Assembly: GCA_036002325.1 (NCBI GenBank)
Contig: DASYTJ010000087.1
Span: 149,188 to 213,187 of the forward strand
Source of the DNA: Thermoanaerobaculia bacterium
Lineage (GTDB): Bacteria > Acidobacteriota > Thermoanaerobaculia > Multivoradales > UBA5704
Direction of reading: 5' to 3'
Length of the DNA stretch: 64,000 bases
Of this stretch, positions 2,765-15,801 are shown piece by piece; within the stretch, counting starts at the first letter, position 1, and every line of letters starts with the position of its first letter. The notes below the pieces were generated by a model. The model made no database searches. It saw nothing but the letters and a program-made list of their open reading frames with translations, and was not told the origin of the DNA. The translations under genes were made by a program, and so were the position numbers.

Positions 2765-5275
<2,511 letters not shown>

Positions 5276-5354: not shown

Positions 5355-5690
5355 ATGACGGAAATTCAGACCATCGAAAGCCTCGCCACGCTCGACGAGT
5401 TGCTCGAGACCTCGCACCGGAAGCCGGTCTGGGTCTTCAAGCACAGCCTGACCTGCGGCATCTCGAGCTTCGCCTGGACCGAGTTCCGGCGCTTCGCCGA
5501 GCAGGCATCCGATGAGGGAACGGTCTACGCGGTCATCGAAGTGCAGAACGCTCGCACCGTCTCGACCGCCCTGGCCGAGCGCATCGGCGTGCGCCACCAG
5601 ACGCCCCAGGCCATCCTGCTCCGCGACGCCCAGGCGGCGTGGCACGCCAGCCATTATGAGATCAGGGTGCAGGCGTTGAAGAAGGCCTGA
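5355..5690 (+). CDS. ytxJ: Bacillithiol-system monothiol thioredoxin-like protein YtxJ
   Basis: 111 aa with a single-Cys T-C-G-I-S motif (YtxJ has TCPIS) and a thioredoxin-like length and pattern. It diverges from the phosphoesterase gene. Confidence 0.6.
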   Translation: MTEIQTIESLATLDELLETSHRKPVWVFKHSLTCGISSFAWTEFRRFAEQASDEGTVYAVIEVQNARTVSTALAERIGVRHQTPQAILLRDAQAAWHASHYEIRVQALKKA

Positions 5691-5705: not shown

Positions 5706-6776
5706 CTACGGCGTTTTCCCGCTCCACTTGGACGCGCTGCCCAACTCGAAGCCGTCGTAAAAGATCGGATCCGTCCGCACGCAGTCGCCGGTGTAATTGA
5801 ACCGCTGGCCGCCGGCGACCATTTGAAAATCGGTCACCCGCAAGGCTCTCAGGTCGAGCGGACCCAGGAGCGTGTCCCATTTGGCCGTGGTGAAACGGTC
5901 GCTCTGGGCGGTCAGGGCGATGGTGCCGCCGTCCGCGAGGAACATGCCGTACTTCTGCAGCGCTCGGGCCACCACCCGGGATGCTTCATTCGGCAGGCTC
6001 TGCAGCGGGTAGTCGGCCCGCAATCGCAGGCGCGCGCCGTAGGGCGGAGCCGTGGTGGGCCCGCTGGTCGCGAAGGTCGAGTGCGTCGCCGGATAGACGT
6101 ACACCTTCCGGCGCATGCGGCTGTTGGGCAGGATGAAACGGATGGCGTGATCGATGTACCCCGCCGCGACCTCGTCGGCGTTGAACAGCAGGGGCGCGAT
6201 GGGAAAGCCGGCGGCGTCGGCGCTGGTGCAGTCGTTGCCGCGGGCCCCCGGCGGATAGGTGAGCTTCATGTTCCACACGGCGAGGCAGCCGCCGTAGAAG
6301 TCGCCGCCGACGAGGTCGGCCCGCCACATCTCGTACAGGCGGTTGCTCGGCCGGTGGACGACGATCAGATGGCAGTCGCCGTCGCTGGCGCACTGGTATC
6401 CGGTTTCACCCTCGAGAGCGCCGCCGGCCGGCACGGGAACCTGCGCGAAGTCGCAATCGGGATCATAGAAATCGCCGGTCGGGGTGAAGCTGCGGAACGG
6501 CGTCGAGGCGTCCGCCTCCAGCACCTCGATCGAGAAGTCGATCTGCATGGTTCCGCCGCCCCAGCCGCCGACGCTGGAGAGCCAGGAGATCACCGCCGCC
6601 GACTCGGAGTCGACGGGAGCCGCCGAGATGTCCTGATACCACGGCGCGTCCGCCGGGAAGTAGGGTCCATGTCCGGCCGGCGGCTGAGCCTGAGCGCCCG
6701 CCGCCGCGGCGAACAGGCAGAGCCCGGCGAAGGCTGCGCAGTGCCACAGCAGTTCCTTCCATACCCGGATTGCCAT
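5706..6776 (-). CDS. Secreted hypothetical protein (signal peptide, Cys-containing)
   Basis: 356-aa ORF. The N-terminus MAIRVWKELLWHCAAFAGLCLFAAAAGAQAQ is signal-peptide-like. No recognisable domain. Confidence 0.5.
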   Translation of the reverse strand: MAIRVWKELLWHCAAFAGLCLFAAAAGAQAQPPAGHGPYFPADAPWYQDISAAPVDSESAAVISWLSSVGGWGGGTMQIDFSIEVLEADASTPFRSFTPTGDFYDPDCDFAQVPVPAGGALEGETGYQCASDGDCHLIVVHRPSNRLYEMWRADLVGGDFYGGCLAVWNMKLTYPPGARGNDCTSADAAGFPIAPLLFNADEVAAGYIDHAIRFILPNSRMRRKVYVYPATHSTFATSGPTTAPPYGARLRLRADYPLQSLPNEASRVVARALQKYGMFLADGGTIALTAQSDRFTTAKWDTLLGPLDLRALRVTDFQMVAGGQRFNYTGDCVRTDPIFYDGFELGSASKWSGKTP

Positions 6777-6809
6777 GAGGCGATTCTACAGGAAGCCAAG
6801 CCGGCCGTA

Positions 6810-7400
6810 TTACGTCGACGGCTCCCAGAGCGCGATGTCGATGCATTCTGCTGCGCATTCGCGCGAAAACTCTTCGACCTCGAAGACGTCGATATAGGGG
6901 TCCCGCTGCTCTCGAATCGCGAGGAGGGTGGGTTCGGCTGCGGACAGGAGGCCCGCTTCGCGGAGGAATGTACCCAGTCTCACCGGCTCCGAATTCATCC
7001 AGGGCCACTGCACGACGCACCCCGCGTAGACCGGCCACCTGACGTCGAAATCCTCCCGGTTCTTCAGGCGGGCGAAGGCGTCCTGGCCGAAATCGGGCCG
7101 GCCACCCTCCAGGGCGAGACCGATCCGGGTCCACAGCGCCAGCTCATCGGATGGGTCCTCGCGCAGGCGAAACGCACAGAAATCCCCGAGGCGATTCGAG
7201 TTCACGGTCTGCACCGCGTAGCCCGGCTGCCAGACCCAATGCGAGCGAGGCAGCTCCTCGACGATTTCGATCGCCTCCAGCAAGGCAGCCTTGGTCTTCG
7301 ACAGGAGATCGCTGCCACCGAGCACTCGAGATCGATAACCGGGGAAACCGGCCCCGAAAGTCCTAGCGAAGAACTCTTCGGCCGCGCCGGCCATGATCAA
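6810..7400 (-). CDS. Hypothetical protein
   Basis: 196-aa ORF. Its 5' end overlaps the stop of the upstream DUF1304 gene by 4 bp (7397-7400), consistent with co-transcription downstream of ku. Confidence 0.45.
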   Translation of the reverse strand: MIMAGAAEEFFARTFGAGFPGYRSRVLGGSDLLSKTKAALLEAIEIVEELPRSHWVWQPGYAVQTVNSNRLGDFCAFRLREDPSDELALWTRIGLALEGGRPDFGQDAFARLKNREDFDVRWPVYAGCVVQWPWMNSEPVRLGTFLREAGLLSAAEPTLLAIREQRDPYIDVFEVEEFSRECAAECIDIALWEPST

Positions 7401-7756
7401 CGCGCGAGCAGCACGAGCGCCAGCGCGAGGGCGCCCGGAACGGCTTGGACCCAGAGGATCTTCCGGCTGGCGGTGGCGGCTCCGAAGATACCGGCGATGA
7501 CCACGCAGACGAGGAAAAAGATCTTGACTGCGAGGCCGGCCGAACCGAGGAGGAGGCCCCAGACGAGCCCCGCGGCCAGGAAGCCGTTGTAGAGGCCCTG
7601 GTTGGCGGCGAGCGACGCCGTGGCCTCCGCCATCTCGCGCGTCAGGCCGAACGTCTTGCGGCCGAAGGGCTTCTTCCAGAGGAACATCTCGAGCACGAGG
7701 AAGTAGAGGTGCAGGACGGCCACCAGACCTACCGCGACATCGGCCACGGTTCCCAT
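7397..7756 (-). CDS. DUF1304 family small membrane protein
   Basis: 119 aa with several hydrophobic helices (VAVGLVAVLHLYFLVLEMFLWKKPFGRKTFGLT...), a typical DUF1304 pattern. It starts 6 bp after the ku stop. Confidence 0.55.
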   Translation of the reverse strand: MGTVADVAVGLVAVLHLYFLVLEMFLWKKPFGRKTFGLTREMAEATASLAANQGLYNGFLAAGLVWGLLLGSAGLAVKIFFLVCVVIAGIFGAATASRKILWVQAVPGALALALVLLAR

Positions 7757-7762
7757 GGCGAT

Positions 7763-8677
7763 CTAGCGCCGCGAGCTCTTCTTCTTCGGCTCCGCGGTTT
7801 CCCCGTCGTCTGCCGGCACAGCTTTGAGGGTGGTGCCGCCAGAGCGCTTGGCGGGTTTGCGGTCGGCGAGCGAGATGGGCTTCTCAGACGCGGACGGCTT
7901 CGCCGCGGCGAGGCTCGCCTTGAGGGCCGCCATGAGGTCGATCACCTGTGCCTTCGGCGCCTCGGCCGGCGCGGCGGTGATCTCCTCGCCCTTGACCTTG
8001 CGCTCGATCAGATCGCGCACCTGCTGGCGCTGCTTGTCCTCATAGTTCTCGGGATGGAACTCGTCGTTGGCGACCTGCTCGATGAGCTGCATCGCCAGCT
8101 TGAGCTCTGACTCCTTGACCTCGAGGTTCGCCGGACCGATAGGCACCTCGGAGAAGTCCCGCAGCTCGTCGGCGTAGCGGAGCTGTTGCATCACCAGACC
8201 GTTCTGGTAGGGCCGCAGGAGCACGAGCTGGTCCTTGCCACGGGCCTGGTAACGGGCGAGCGCCGCCCGCCCGGTCTGCTTCATCGCCTCGGCGAGCAGC
8301 CGGTAGGGACGGTCGCCCCCCTTGTCGGATCCCAGATACCACGACTTCTCGAAGTAGACCGGATCGATCTGATCCAAGGGGATGAACTCGGAGATCTCGA
8401 TCGCGTTGGTGGCCTCCGGCTGAAGGGCCTTGAGCTCCGCATCGTTGAACAGAACGTACTGCCCCTTGGCGTACTCGTAGCCCTTGGCCACGCCGTCCTT
8501 CTCCACCACCTCGTTGTCGACAGGACAGATGTACTGCTGCTTGAGCCGCGAGCCGCACTTCTTGTGCAGCATATTGAATTGAACTCCGACCGAGCTTTCG
8601 CCGGTGGAATACAGCTTGACGGGGATGGTAACGAGACCGAAAGCGATGGTGCCGGAGGCAAAGGGACGGGCGCTCAT
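7763..8677 (-). CDS. ku: Non-homologous end joining protein Ku
   Basis: The 3' 304 codons of the long minus ORF 7763..10855 encode MSARPFASGTIAFGLVTIPVKLYSTGESS..., a classic Ku N-terminus and core. The rest of that ORF is antisense read-through of ligD. An alternative start lies 22 codons upstream (8743). Confidence 0.85.
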   Translation of the reverse strand: MSARPFASGTIAFGLVTIPVKLYSTGESSVGVQFNMLHKKCGSRLKQQYICPVDNEVVEKDGVAKGYEYAKGQYVLFNDAELKALQPEATNAIEISEFIPLDQIDPVYFEKSWYLGSDKGGDRPYRLLAEAMKQTGRAALARYQARGKDQLVLLRPYQNGLVMQQLRYADELRDFSEVPIGPANLEVKESELKLAMQLIEQVANDEFHPENYEDKQRQQVRDLIERKVKGEEITAAPAEAPKAQVIDLMAALKASLAAAKPSASEKPISLADRKPAKRSGGTTLKAVPADDGETAEPKKKSSRR

Positions 8678-8857
8678 GAAAGGGTAATATACGCCGATTG
8701 CGTTTTGAAAGGAAACAGAATCGGCCGTGTACCGTTCGCTCATAAATTGAAAACCTCGCCCCCTTCCCGCACGCCGGACCCCGCCCGCGTTATCCGCGAC
8801 GAGCTCGCCCGGCTCGGAGCTCCCCGCTCGCCGGTCGATCCGGCCACGGTCCAGGTG

Positions 8858-10747
8858 ATGAAACCGGAGATTCGGGAGCGGCCGTTCAGCCGCGCCGGCT
8901 GGATCTTCGAGCTGAAGCACGACGGCTTCCGCATGCTGGCCGCCGGCGGCCTCGGCGCGGCGCGGCTGCTCTACAAGAAGGGGCGAGACACCACGCGCGT
9001 CTTCCCGGAAGTGGCCGAGGCCGTGGCGGGCCTCCCGTTCGGCTCGCTGCTCCTGGATGGCGAGGTGGTGGTGCTCGACGAGGAGGGCCGTCCCGACTTC
9101 AACAAGCTTCACAAGCGGGGTCTGGGGACGCGGCCGGTGCCGCCCTCTCAGATCACCGACCCAGCCGTGCTCTTCGTCTTCGATCTCCTGGCCTTCGAGG
9201 ACTTCGACCTCCGGCCGTTGCCGCTGCTCACGCGCAAGGCGTTCCTGCGCCGGGTAGTTCCCGGTGAAGGCCTGGTTCGCCTCTCCGATGAGATCCCGGA
9301 GCGGGGCGAGGACCTCTACGCCGCCGTGATCGGGATGGGGCTCGAAGGCATCATCGGCAAACGCGCGGACTCGCCCTACCGCGCCGGCCGCTCGGCCGAC
9401 TGGCTGAAGGTCAAGGCCGCCCGGACCGGAGACTTCGCCGTCATCGGGTTCGATCCGGTCCCCGGAAGTCCCAAGGGGTTCCGCGCGTTCTACCTCGCCA
9501 CGCGCCAGGGCTCTGACAGCTGGCAGTTCGTGGGCTCGGTGGGCACCGGCTTCACCAGCGGGGACGTAGCCGAGATCTGGCCCCGCCTCGACAGCGCCCG
9601 CCGGCCCCGTCCCGTCGTCGCCGTTCCCCCCGAAGATCAATTGAAGACAGCCATCTGGATCGAGCCCCGGATCGTCGTCGAAGTGCGGTACAAGGACTGG
9701 ACGGAGGGCGGGCACCTGCGCCACGCGGTCTTCTTGCGGCTGCGGGACGACAAGACCGTCGACGAATGCACGCCGCCCGGCGGAGAGAGGATGGAGGAGC
9801 AGGAGCCGCCCGGTGAGCCGCCTGCGGAGACGCCCCCCGCCGAGCCTCCCGCTGCTGCGGGACCCGTTCCCTTCACCAATCTCGACAAGGTCTTCTGGCC
9901 GGAAGAAGGCATCACCAAGGGAGATCTCGTCGAGTTCTATCGTGCGATCGCGCCCTGGATGCTTCCCTTCCTCCGCGATCGCCCGCTCGTCCTGGATCGC
10001 TACCCGAATGGCGTGGCCGGCAAGTCGTTTTTTCAGAAAACCGTCCCCGCAGGCACCTCCGGCCGCTTCCGCACGGTGTTCCTCGACGCCGGAGGCTCGG
10101 ACCGCGGCCACGAATACGTGCTCTGCGATGACGTGGAAACTCTGCTCGAGCTGGTGAACCTGGCGGCCATTCCGTTCCACATCTGGGCGAGCCGCGTGAC
10201 CGACGTCGAGCGTCCGGACTGGTGCATTCTCGATCTCGACCCGAAGTCTGCGCCGTTCACCCACGTCGTCGCCATCGCCCGCGCCGTGCGCGAGCTGTGC
10301 GAGGAAATCGAGCTGCCGAGCTTCATCAAGACGAGCGGCGGCAGCGGCCTGCACGTGCTGATGCCGACCGGCGGCCAGCTCGATTTTGATCAGGTCCGCC
10401 AGCTCGCTGAGCTGCTGGCCGGTGTCATCGTGGCTCGCATGCCGGCGATCGCCACCACGGCCCGGGCCATTCGCGCCCGCGAAGGCAGGGTTTACGTCGA
10501 CGCCTTGCAGAACGGCCGCGGCAAGCTCCTCGTCGCGCCCTATTCCGTGCGGCCCCGTCCGGGAGCGCCCCTTTCGACGCCCCTGCAGTGGAACGAGGTG
10601 AATGATTCCCTGGACGTCCGCGCCTTCAACATCAAGACCGTACCGCCACGGGTTCGCAAACTGAAACAGGACCCGCTGCTGCCCGTGCTGGACGTCAAAC
10701 CGGATCTGGAACGGAGCCTGGGGCTGCTGAGCGAGCGGCTCGGCTGA
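8858..10747 (+). CDS. ligD: ATP-dependent DNA ligase LigD: ligase domain plus primase-polymerase domain, with no phosphoesterase domain
   Basis: Ligase motif I ELKHDGFR (KxDG adenylation lysine). A Pro/Glu-rich linker is followed by the Pol domain (FTNLDKVFWPEEGITKGDLVEFYRAIAPW..., KTSGGSGLHVLMP). Start could be ATG 8858, GTG 8855 or TTG 8747. It diverges from ku. Confidence 0.85.
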   Translation: MKPEIRERPFSRAGWIFELKHDGFRMLAAGGLGAARLLYKKGRDTTRVFPEVAEAVAGLPFGSLLLDGEVVVLDEEGRPDFNKLHKRGLGTRPVPPSQITDPAVLFVFDLLAFEDFDLRPLPLLTRKAFLRRVVPGEGLVRLSDEIPERGEDLYAAVIGMGLEGIIGKRADSPYRAGRSADWLKVKAARTGDFAVIGFDPVPGSPKGFRAFYLATRQGSDSWQFVGSVGTGFTSGDVAEIWPRLDSARRPRPVVAVPPEDQLKTAIWIEPRIVVEVRYKDWTEGGHLRHAVFLRLRDDKTVDECTPPGGERMEEQEPPGEPPAETPPAEPPAAAGPVPFTNLDKVFWPEEGITKGDLVEFYRAIAPWMLPFLRDRPLVLDRYPNGVAGKSFFQKTVPAGTSGRFRTVFLDAGGSDRGHEYVLCDDVETLLELVNLAAIPFHIWASRVTDVERPDWCILDLDPKSAPFTHVVAIARAVRELCEEIELPSFIKTSGGSGLHVLMPTGGQLDFDQVRQLAELLAGVIVARMPAIATTARAIRAREGRVYVDALQNGRGKLLVAPYSVRPRPGAPLSTPLQWNEVNDSLDVRAFNIKTVPPRVRKLKQDPLLPVLDVKPDLERSLGLLSERLG

Positions 10748-10902: not shown

Positions 10903-15801
<4,899 letters not shown>

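What the first reader, a model, noticed from the sequence alone, without database searches (positions are those of the whole stretch)
5706..10747. NHEJ locus in which ku is apparently co-transcribed with three uncharacterised genes (DUF1304 membrane protein, a 196-aa protein, a 356-aa secreted protein); LigD has the order ligase-polymerase with no phosphoesterase domain
ku and ligD are divergent, so one shared regulatory region is likely. Downstream of ku on the same strand lie DUF1304 (6-bp gap), then a 196-aa ORF (4-bp overlap), then a secreted 356-aa protein (33-bp gap). This tight packing suggests an operon linking Ku to membrane and secreted proteins of unknown function; whether they are NHEJ accessory factors is speculative. 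LigD has the ligase domain (KHDGFR) first, then a Pro/Glu-rich linker, then the Pol domain, with no PE domain. That is a less common arrangement than PE-Lig-Pol or Pol-PE-Lig.
Basis: partly seen in the sequence, partly recalled or inferred. Interest (0 to 1): 0.55.

Follow-up and report, generated by a model that had tools for sequence, protein, structure and literature searches.

The report
Ordinary Ku–LigD locus with incidental neighbours
This is a normal two-gene bacterial DNA end-joining locus (Ku plus a ligase-polymerase LigD of the known Bacillus type); of the three unknown genes packed behind ku, only the small membrane gene stays with ku in close relatives, and the other two are unrelated neighbours.

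Summary
The gene layout is as described, with small corrections. ku (7763-8677, -) and ligD (to 10747, +) are divergent. DUF1304, a 194/196-aa ORF and a 356-aa secreted protein follow ku with gaps of 6, 2 (or -4) and 33 bp. LigD is Lig-Pol with no PE domain.

The accessory-factor reading does not hold.
- 356-aa family: more than 6000 homologs. Ku, LigD, DUF1304 and the 196-aa gene are absent within 10 kb in 80 of 80 species genomes.
- The 356-aa gene has its own -10 box (TAGAAT or TACAAT) 6-7 nt before the ATG in 16 of 17 Thermoanaerobaculia loci. Its fold matches phage minor tail proteins.
- 196-aa gene: an orphan helical protein. Elsewhere it sits beside DinB, ParE or 23S_rRNA_IVP genes, never beside ku.
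- DUF1304: follows ku only in the closest subclade (7 of 8 loci with Ku at least 86% identical). More distant DUF1304 genes (81% or less) are unlinked.
- Sister clades carry a MerR-TPR gene behind ku instead.

Lig-Pol without PE is the known B. subtilis arrangement. Distant relatives here still have PE-Lig-Pol.

Verdict: an ordinary NHEJ locus, with a shallow lineage-specific ku-DUF1304 pairing and a variable downstream slot. Interest is low.

The parts
8747..10747 (+). ligD: ATP-dependent ligase (adenylation + OB domains), a Pro/Glu-rich linker, then a primase-polymerase domain. No PE domain. The start is uncertain: TTG 8747 or 8705, with ATG 8858 as the minimal start.
   Evidence: Pfam A_M, A_C and LigD_Prim-Pol; TIGR02776 503 bits. 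The N-terminal extension is conserved as coding sequence. KHDGFR, DLD and SGGSGLH motifs are read in the translation.
8678..8746 (.). Short divergent ku/ligD control region.
   Evidence: Alignment of 25 spacers. The divergent arrangement is conserved in about 30 loci.
8686..8691 (-). -10-like box TATATT, 8 nt upstream of the ku ATG. Inferred to be a leaderless-type ku promoter.
   Evidence: TATATT, TATACT or TATAAT lies 8-9 nt from the ATG in about 35 Ku loci of 60-89% identity. Promoter function is inferred, not shown.
7763..8677 (-). ku, 304 aa, with a Lys-rich C-terminal tail.
   Evidence: PF02735 166.7 bits; TIGR02772 292.5 bits.
7397..7756 (-). DUF1304 small membrane protein, 119 aa, pI 9.9, GRAVY 1.18. 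It starts 6 bp after ku.
   Evidence: PF06993 144.7 bits. Ku-linked only in homologs of at least 83% identity. pI and GRAVY.
6810..7394 (-). Orphan acidic all-helical cytoplasmic protein, 194 aa from ATG 7394 or 196 aa from TTG 7400.
   Evidence: 21 close homologs. 101 representative clusters by profile search. No Pfam, PADLOC, PHROG or PDB match. AF2 pLDDT 85 with 10 helices. pI 4.65.
6783..6788 (-). -10-like box TAGAAT, 6 nt upstream of the ATG of the 356-aa gene. Inferred to be that gene's own leaderless-type promoter.
   Evidence: TAGAAT, TACAAT or TAGAGT lies 6-7 nt from the ATG in 16 of 17 Thermoanaerobaculia-type loci that share no upstream context. Eight such ORF starts occur in the window against 2.7 +/- 1.8 in shuffles.
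5706..6776 (-). Secreted 356-aa protein with a Sec signal peptide (...AGAQA/QPP) and six invariant Cys. It belongs to a very large, highly conserved, unnamed family.
   Evidence: More than 6000 homologs at E <= 1e-3. Invariant residues. AF2 pTM 0.79. No PDB fold match. BFVD matches to phage minor tail proteins at E 4e-15 to 4e-8. phrog_17388 at 1.2e-5.
5355..5690 (+). Flank: ytxJ/brxC monothiol bacilliredoxin-like gene, convergent with the 356-aa gene.
   Evidence: PF11009 104 bits; TIGR04019. The same flank is present in L129, where a PIN/MazE pair replaces the 196-aa and 356-aa genes.
10903..15801 (+). Flank: 1632-aa fused biotin carboxylase/carboxyltransferase (ACC-like), syntenic with ligD/ku in relatives.
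   Evidence: The ORF is listed. The same neighbour carries Pfam CPSase_L_D2, Biotin_lipoyl, ACC_central and Carboxyl_trans in the loci.

Best explanation
The locus is a standard two-component bacterial NHEJ module in a Thermoanaerobaculia (Acidobacteriota) genome.

Mechanism, inferred from family knowledge:
- Ku dimers thread onto broken DNA ends and recruit LigD.
- The LigD primase-polymerase domain fills or extends ends, and its ATP-dependent ligase domain seals them.
- LigD lacks the 3'-phosphoesterase domain, as in B. subtilis.

Transcription:
- ku and ligD are transcribed divergently from a very short spacer.
- ku appears to have a leaderless-type promoter, with a -10 box 8 nt before its ATG.

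The three genes behind ku are not NHEJ components.
- DUF1304 is a small membrane protein. It became the gene after ku only in a shallow subclade. In this window it is probably read through from the ku promoter, together with the 194-aa orphan gene.
- The 356-aa gene encodes a secreted protein with a phage-tail-protein-like fold, probably acting on the cell surface or on polysaccharide. It has its own promoter and only happens to lie here.
- The stretch between DUF1304 and ytxJ is a variable slot that holds different cargo in different relatives.
For: Shown here:
1. Ku and LigD identities and domain content. Motif I KHDGFR and the Pol DLD and SGGSGLH motifs are in the translation.
2. Divergent ligD/ku is conserved in about 30 loci at Ku 57-89% identity.
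3. No PE domain in the window. PE-Lig-Pol is present in distant loci L114, L116 and L123, so PE loss is clade-specific.
4. Lig-Pol without PE is documented for B. subtilis (PMC8656161).
5. The 356-aa gene has none of Ku, LigD, DUF1304 or the 196-aa gene within +/-10 kb in 0 of 80 species genomes, and no shared neighbour in more than 9 of 80.
6. The 356-aa gene has a fixed-distance TAGAAT/TACAAT box in 16 of 17 loci with unrelated upstream sequence.
7. It has a signal peptide and six invariant Cys.
8. Its fold matches phage minor tail proteins.
9. 196-aa homologs lie beside DinB, ParE, 23S_rRNA_IVP or TPR genes, not ku.
10. DUF1304 follows ku in 7 of 8 loci with Ku >= 86% identity. It follows ku in none of about 25 loci with Ku 55-78% identity and readable downstream sequence; 18 of these have a MerR-TPR gene and 3 have DUF72.
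11. DUF1304 homologs of 81% identity or less are unlinked to ku in 4 of 4 cases.
12. L129 has the same flanks (Ku-DUF1304 ... BrxC-838 aa) but a PIN/MazE pair in place of the 196-aa and 356-aa genes.

Inferred: promoter function of the -10-like boxes, leaderless transcription, and read-through of ku-DUF1304-194.
Against: - No transcript data exist. Read-through from ku into all three genes cannot be excluded: there is no terminator between them and the gaps are 6, 2 and 33 bp.
- ku-DUF1304 adjacency with 4-20 bp gaps recurs in several distinct contigs (L087, L088, L129-L131). This could reflect selection rather than shared descent.
- The 356-aa gene lies near ku-DUF1304 in four contigs of the same subclade (the window, the P0008 contig, L088, L090).
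- The function of the 356-aa protein rests on predicted-structure similarity only (TM 0.44-0.60, about 17% identity).
Confidence: 0.8

Rival explanations
1. One reading: ku, DUF1304, the 196-aa gene and the 356-aa gene form one operon, and its products are accessory factors of NHEJ, for example by tethering repair to the envelope.
For: All four genes are on the same strand with gaps of 6, 2 (or -4) and 33 bp, and no terminator-like site above chance. The same four-gene order occurs in one other contig.
Against: - 0 of 80 loci with a 356-aa homolog have Ku nearby.
- The 356-aa protein is exported (signal peptide, invariant Cys), so it cannot reach chromosomal ends.
- It has its own conserved -10 box.
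- The 196-aa gene lies in non-Ku contexts elsewhere.
- In the other four-gene contig, ku and DUF1304 are 650 bp apart.
Confidence: 0.04
2. A narrower coupling: in this Thermoanaerobaculia subclade ku and DUF1304 (with or without the 194-aa gene) form a real bicistronic unit. They would be co-regulated for the same physiological state, such as stationary phase or desiccation, without DUF1304 taking part in end joining.
For: DUF1304 follows ku in 7 of 8 loci with Ku >= 86% identity. The gaps are 4-20 bp in five of them, while the genes further downstream differ. The window's 6-bp gap has no room for a promoter.
Against: - The pairing is shallow: absent at Ku <= 78% and at DUF1304 <= 81% identity.
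- L086 (Ku 86%) lacks it.
- In L089, L090 and L001 the gap is 84-650 bp and a TAGAAT or TAGGAT box precedes DUF1304.
- DUF1304 is reported in taxa such as Staphylococcus and Streptococcus, which lack Ku (my own knowledge).
Confidence: 0.15
3. The 194-aa and 356-aa genes are cargo of a small variable or mobile islet inserted between DUF1304 and ytxJ, possibly related to defence or toxin-antitoxin systems.
For: - The same slot holds PIN/MazE in L129.
- It holds a different 160-aa ORF in L088 and nothing in L090.
- An AbiEii-like gene follows it in the P0008 contig.
- 196-aa homologs lie next to ParE/PhdYeFM, and in L002/L003 lie 3-6.5 kb downstream of SIR2 and SMODS genes on the same contigs.
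Against: - No PADLOC or PHROG hit for the 194-aa protein.
- No integrase or transposase was seen in this stretch. Flanking repeats were not searched for.
- GC content is uniform.
- The 356-aa family is a conserved, mostly single-context chromosomal gene in 80 species.
Confidence: 0.3

Closest known systems
Bacillus subtilis NHEJ pair YkoV (Ku) / YkoU (LigD)
   Same: A two-component Ku + LigD system. LigD has the N-terminal ligase and C-terminal polymerase domains and no phosphoesterase domain (PMC8656161 section 5; PMC3656841).
   Different: The sequences are only distantly related: NF007211, the Bacillus-type equivalog, scores 289 bits against a cut-off of 774. The genes here are divergent; in B. 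subtilis they are co-directional (my own knowledge). PE loss here looks independent, since more distant relatives of this Ku clade keep PE-Lig-Pol.
Pseudomonas aeruginosa / Agrobacterium LigD (PE-Lig-Pol)
   Same: The Lig-then-Pol order is the same. The best full-length model is TIGR02776, and NF004628 aligns over positions 253-857 of 870, which is everything after the PE part.
   Different: The N-terminal 3'-phosphoesterase domain is missing.
Pfam DUF1304 (PF06993) small membrane proteins
   Same: Full-length match at 144.7 bits.
   Different: No function is known. The position after ku is specific to a shallow Thermoanaerobaculia subclade.
Actinophage minor tail proteins (e.g. Gordonia phage Guillaume A0A411B1R7; phrog_17388)
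   Same: The predicted fold of the 356-aa protein aligns over about 340-360 columns with a domain of these proteins (Foldseek E 4e-15 to 4e-8, prob 1.0). There is also a weak sequence-profile hit.
   Different: The phage proteins are 750-985 aa multidomain tail components, one with parallel beta-helix repeats. This one is a stand-alone secreted cellular protein at about 17% identity. No biochemical function is known for either.

Membership tests
Bacterial NHEJ (Ku + LigD) | Ku homolog with the Ku70/80 beta-barrel core | tested here: met
   PF02735 166.7 bits; TIGR02772 292.5 bits against a cut-off of 150.
Bacterial NHEJ (Ku + LigD) | ATP-dependent ligase with an adenylation domain (motif I KxDG) and an OB domain | tested here: met
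   PF01068 and PF04679. KHDGFR is in the translation. TIGR02779 261.8 bits against 227.75.
Bacterial NHEJ (Ku + LigD) | LigD primase-polymerase domain | tested here: met
   PF21686 280 bits; TIGR02778 246.4 bits against 214.7. DLD and SGGSGLH motifs are present.
Bacterial NHEJ (Ku + LigD) | ku and ligD adjacent in the genome | tested here: met
   Divergent, with a spacer of 180 bp or less. Conserved in about 30 related loci.
Bacterial NHEJ (Ku + LigD) | End-joining activity | not testable with these tools
   Needs biochemistry or genetics.
Three-domain LigD (with 3'-phosphoesterase) | PE domain (PF13298 / TIGR02777) in LigD or nearby | tested here: not met
   No PE family hit in LigD. No PE-like sequence in the 64-kb window, with a positive control in L114, L116 and L123. 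The rest of the genome was not available.
B. subtilis-type LigD (Lig-Pol, no PE) | Domain order ligase then polymerase, with PE absent | tested here: met
   Ligase at residues 11-299 and Pol at 353-606 of the 629-aa minimal protein. The architecture is described in PMC8656161.
B. subtilis-type LigD (Lig-Pol, no PE) | Orthology to the Bacillus protein (NF007211 equivalog cut-off) | tested here: not met
   289 bits against a cut-off of 774. The architecture is the same, but this is not the same orthologous group.
   356-aa gene: 0 of 80 genomes. 196-aa gene: only the window and one other contig. DUF1304: only at Ku >= 86% identity.
   A conserved -10-like TAGAAT lies 6 nt before the ATG of the 356-aa gene, so an independent promoter there is likely. 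None is possible in the 6-bp and 2-bp gaps. No transcript data exist.
Pfam DUF1304 | Score above the PF06993 gathering threshold over the full length | tested here: met
   144.7 bits against 26.9; residues 10-116 match profile positions 1-110 of 110.

The most novel reading that the evidence does not exclude
In this Thermoanaerobaculia subclade, DUF1304 (and here the 194-aa orphan protein) is expressed from the leaderless ku promoter as part of one dormancy or DNA-damage unit. That would give the first functional context for DUF1304: a membrane protein co-regulated with end joining. The 356-aa protein, which is not linked to NHEJ, would be the founding member of a very large, unnamed family of secreted proteins that share a fold with phage minor tail proteins.
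Probability: 0.12. Interest if true: 0.45.

Novelty: new member of a known kind. Interest (0 to 1): 0.15.

Why it matters
Little changes for NHEJ biology. The locus adds an acidobacterial example of the PE-less Lig-Pol LigD. It also shows that tight packing behind ku is not evidence for accessory factors here.

Some by-products may be useful:
- A conserved -10 box at a leaderless distance from the ku start gives a testable promoter for this uncultured class.
- ku in sister clades has a much more widely conserved downstream partner, a MerR-TPR protein. That is a better candidate NHEJ-linked regulator than anything in this window.
- The 356-aa family (more than 6000 homologs, 50-83% identity across phyla, no Pfam or PDB relative) is a large uncharacterised family of secreted proteins and deserves its own annotation.

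Tried and rejected
- Foldseek against the PDB for both unknown proteins: nothing below E 0.5.
- Profile searches of both families against PDB sequences: nothing meaningful.
- PADLOC for all three downstream proteins: no hits.
- PHROGs: only one weak hit, for the 356-aa protein.
- Pfam scan of 60 distant members of the 196-aa family: no shared family, only scattered fusion partners.
- tblastn of the 356-aa protein against 50,697 phage genomes: one marginal hit. The phage link therefore rests on structure, not sequence.
- Rfam scan of the whole window: nothing.
- Generic sigma-70 promoter and terminator scan: uninformative. The -10-only, leaderless-type boxes were found only by aligning upstream regions.
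- All-against-all clustering of neighbours of the 356-aa gene, to find a functional partner: none in more than 9 of 80 loci.
- JGI's name 'serine/threonine-protein kinase' for 356-aa homologs: rejected, because there is no kinase domain in Pfam or NCBIfam.
- The PF04185 'Phosphoesterase' domain of the 836-aa neighbour: considered as a possible stand-in for PE and rejected. It belongs to the phospholipase C / acid phosphatase family, not the LigD 3'-phosphoesterase (my own knowledge of the two families).

Full report
**1. What is in the sequence**

The ORF list and translations give the following genes, read along the minus strand from ku.
- ku: 7763-8677, 304 aa.
- DUF1304: 7397-7756, 119 aa.
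- An ORF at 6810-7400 (196 aa from TTG) or 6810-7394 (194 aa from ATG).
- An ORF at 5706-6776, 356 aa.
- ligD lies divergently on the plus strand and ends at 10747.

Family scans give these results.
- Ku: PF02735 166.7 bits; TIGR02772 292.5 bits against a cut-off of 150.
- DUF1304: PF06993 144.7 bits.
- LigD: DNA_ligase_A_M + DNA_ligase_A_C + LigD_Prim-Pol; TIGR02776 503 bits against a cut-off of 373. No PE family is hit.
- The 196-aa and 356-aa proteins hit nothing in Pfam or NCBIfam.

The junctions read directly from the sequence.
- TAG-ATCGCC-ATG between ku and DUF1304: 6 bp.
- TTGATCATG at the DUF1304/196-aa junction: a 4-bp overlap with the TTG start, or a 2-bp gap with the ATG start.
- 33 bp between the 196-aa stop and the 356-aa ATG.

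NCBI's identical protein is 194 aa, and most homologs, including the closest, start MA.AAEE, with no extension matching the TTG start. The ATG at 7394 is therefore the likely start. The source is a Thermoanaerobaculia MAG, judged from the names attached to the identical proteins.

**2. LigD**

The ORF upstream of ATG 8858 is conserved as coding sequence (..IR.EL.RLGAPR..VDP..) in 24 related loci. The true start is therefore further upstream, at TTG 8747 or 8705. The ku-ligD spacer is then only a few tens of bp. ku lies immediately upstream, so no N-terminal PE domain is possible.

I used a PE-domain sequence recalled from memory as a tblastn query. This makes it a lead, not a reference. It found nothing in the 64-kb window (best E 0.17). 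It did hit L114, L116 and L123 at about 1e-31, directly upstream of their Lig-Pol parts. This serves as a positive control. It also shows that more distant members of this Ku clade (Ku 57-61% identity) have PE-Lig-Pol, while the window's clade (Ku at least 70%, about 30 loci with ku directly abutting ligD) has lost PE.

Lig-Pol without PE is the textbook B. subtilis arrangement (PMC8656161 section 5, citing de Vega 2013, PMC3656841). This protein is not an ortholog of the Bacillus one, since NF007211 scores 289 bits against a cut-off of 774. The architecture is real but not novel.

**3. Is the 356-aa gene tied to ku?**

The family is very large: more than 6000 proteins at E <= 1e-3 among 8000 scored candidates, and the 120 best are 67-83% identical. 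A scan of one genome per species returned 80 loci from Thermoanaerobaculia, Vicinamibacteria, Acidobacteriaceae, Myxococcota, Phycisphaera and Spirochaetales.

tblastn with Ku, LigD, DUF1304 and the 196-aa protein found none of them within +/-10 kb in any of the 80 loci. Relaxing to E <= 0.05 added only two weak matches to the ligase domain, and still no Ku. Clustering all neighbouring ORFs gave no partner present in more than 9 of 80 loci.

The protein has a Sec-type signal peptide (...FAAAAGAQA/QPP) and six invariant cysteines. AlphaFold gave pLDDT 76.8 and pTM 0.79. Foldseek found nothing in the PDB. It did find five strong matches among predicted viral structures, at E 4e-15 to 4e-8 and TM (query) 0.44-0.60. 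These include a Gordonia phage minor tail protein and a phage protein with parallel beta-helix repeats. A weak profile hit to phrog_17388, 'minor tail protein', agrees with this. An exported protein with a tail-protein-like fold has no evident route to chromosomal DNA ends.

**4. Promoters**

Aligning the 70 nt upstream of the 356-aa gene across loci shows TAGAAT, TACAAT or TAGAGT ending 6-7 nt before the ATG in 16 of 17 Thermoanaerobaculia-type loci. The sequence further upstream is unrelated between these loci. In the window the box is at 6783-6788.

ku has the same kind of element: TATATT, TATACT or TATAAT, 8-9 nt before the ATG in about 35 loci. In the window it is at 8686-8691.

Across the window, 8 ORF starts of at least 100 aa carry such a box 5-9 nt upstream, against 2.7 +/- 1.8 in shuffles. 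These include ku, the 356-aa gene and the 836-aa neighbour.

I infer -10-only, leaderless-type promoters. This is not shown. On this reading the 356-aa gene brings its own promoter wherever it sits.

**5. The 196/194-aa gene**

Only 21 close homologs exist in 5.8 billion clusters. A profile search of 1.84 billion representatives found 101. None of them shares a Pfam family over the homologous region.

The protein is acidic (pI 4.65) and all-helical (pLDDT 85). It has no PDB, PADLOC or PHROG match.

Its contexts are as follows.
- DUF1304-196-357 behind LigD/Ku in one other contig, where ku and DUF1304 are 650 bp apart.
- DinB-196-TPR, on contigs that also carry SIR2, QueC (in L002 only) and SMODS genes 3-6.5 kb upstream.
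- PhdYeFM-ParE-196, or 196 alone.
- TPR-39aa-196.
- 23S_rRNA_IVP-196.

It is a patchy accessory gene, not a partner of Ku.

**6. DUF1304**

Among Ku loci from metagenomes and from the DUF1304 look-ups, the pattern depends on Ku identity.

| Ku identity to the window | Loci | Gene after ku |
|---|---|---|
| at least 86% | 8 | DUF1304 in 7 (gaps 4, 11, 16, 16, 20, 84, 368 nt) |
| 55-78%, downstream sequence readable | about 25 | DUF1304 in 0; MerR-HTH + TPR gene at about +24 nt in 18; DUF72 in 3; AhpC-like, polysaccharide lyase, M19 peptidase or UDG in others |

DUF1304 homologs of 81% identity or less are not next to ku in 4 of 4 cases. In L089, L090 and L001 the gap is larger, and a TAGAAT or TAGGAT box precedes DUF1304.

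L129 has the same outer flanks as the window (Ku-DUF1304 ... BrxC-838 aa). It carries a PIN/MazE pair where the window has the 194-aa and 356-aa genes. L088 has a different 160-aa ORF in the slot, and L090 has none.

The conserved unit is therefore ku-DUF1304 at shallow depth, followed by a variable slot.

**7. Mechanism**

Two things are shown: the domain content and the conservation of the divergent pair. Three things are inferred from family knowledge:
- Ku rings bind the ends and recruit LigD.
- The Pol domain fills or extends, and the ligase seals.
- 3'-end cleaning by PE is absent from this protein, as in B. subtilis.

Two further points are inferred from this analysis. ku is transcribed from a leaderless-type promoter, with probable read-through into DUF1304 and the 194-aa gene, because the gaps leave no intergenic room for a promoter. 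The 356-aa gene is transcribed from its own promoter.

**8. Verdict**

This is an ordinary NHEJ locus of a known architecture. Its downstream neighbours are lineage-specific and, for two of the three, demonstrably unlinked to ku elsewhere. The synteny criterion is met for the 196-aa gene. Only the ku-DUF1304 pairing survives, and only within a narrow subclade.

Interest is low. The side observations are listed separately: the MerR-TPR partner of ku in sister clades, the large unnamed secreted family, and the leaderless-type promoters.

Noticed in passing
L093-L107 (e.g. L094:7956-8846), L119:3984-4781, L120, L124: In sister clades (Ku 55-78% identical) the gene about 24 nt downstream of ku is a 265-300 aa protein with an N-terminal MerR-type HTH and C-terminal TPR repeats (18 loci). 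This partner of ku is conserved far more deeply than anything in the window, and it has no homolog in the window. It could be an NHEJ-linked regulator.
   Followed up: partly
window 5706-6776 (-): The 356-aa secreted protein belongs to a family with more than 6000 homologs that are 50-83% identical across Acidobacteriota, Myxococcota, Planctomycetota and Spirochaetota. It has no Pfam or PDB relative. It has six invariant Cys and a predicted fold shared with phage minor tail proteins. JGI's label 'serine/threonine-protein kinase' for many members looks wrong, because no kinase domain is present.
   Followed up: partly
window 8686-8691, 6783-6788, and upstream of ORF starts at 5275, 21362, 28385, 39489, 49166, 54635: -10-like hexamers (TAnn[AT]T) lie 6-9 nt before start codons, which suggests leaderless transcripts. 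There are 8 such ORF starts in the window against 2.7 +/- 1.8 in shuffles. The ku box GTATATTAC is nearly palindromic and could also face ligD.
   Followed up: partly
L129:1518-2158; L088:1756-2238; the P0008 contig: The stretch between DUF1304 and ytxJ is a variable slot. It holds PIN/MazE in L129, an unrelated 160-aa ORF in L088, nothing in L090, and the 196-aa and 356-aa genes in the window. In the P0008 contig an AbiEii-like gene follows them, and a PIN gene with a 71-aa partner sits between ACC and ligD.
   Followed up: partly
L130:1-4860: This locus has a ku-DUF1304 pair (Ku 86% identical) directly next to the ACC-like gene, with no ligD between them. ligD must be elsewhere in that genome or lost.
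   Followed up: no
L114:2295-2627, L116:6456-6788, L123:500-826: More distant relatives of this Ku clade keep a PE domain fused upstream of Lig-Pol. PE was therefore lost within the lineage leading to the window.
   Followed up: partly
L002/L003:1360-8609: A 196-aa homolog overlaps the stop of a DinB-like gene and lies downstream of SIR2_2 and SMODS genes (QueC too in L002) and a 23S_rRNA_IVP gene. This looks like a defence-island-like neighbourhood.
   Followed up: no
window 10903-15801 (+) and 2765-5275 (-): A 1632-aa fused biotin carboxylase/carboxyltransferase is syntenic with ligD/ku in relatives. An 836-aa secreted beta-propeller + PF04185 phosphoesterase is syntenic on the other side.
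   Followed up: no
window 5732-5770 (-), C-terminus of the 356-aa protein: The C-terminal tail DPIFYDGFELGSASKWSG is present only in the Thermoanaerobaculia-type members. More distant homologs end at about residue 335. Its role is unknown.
   Followed up: no
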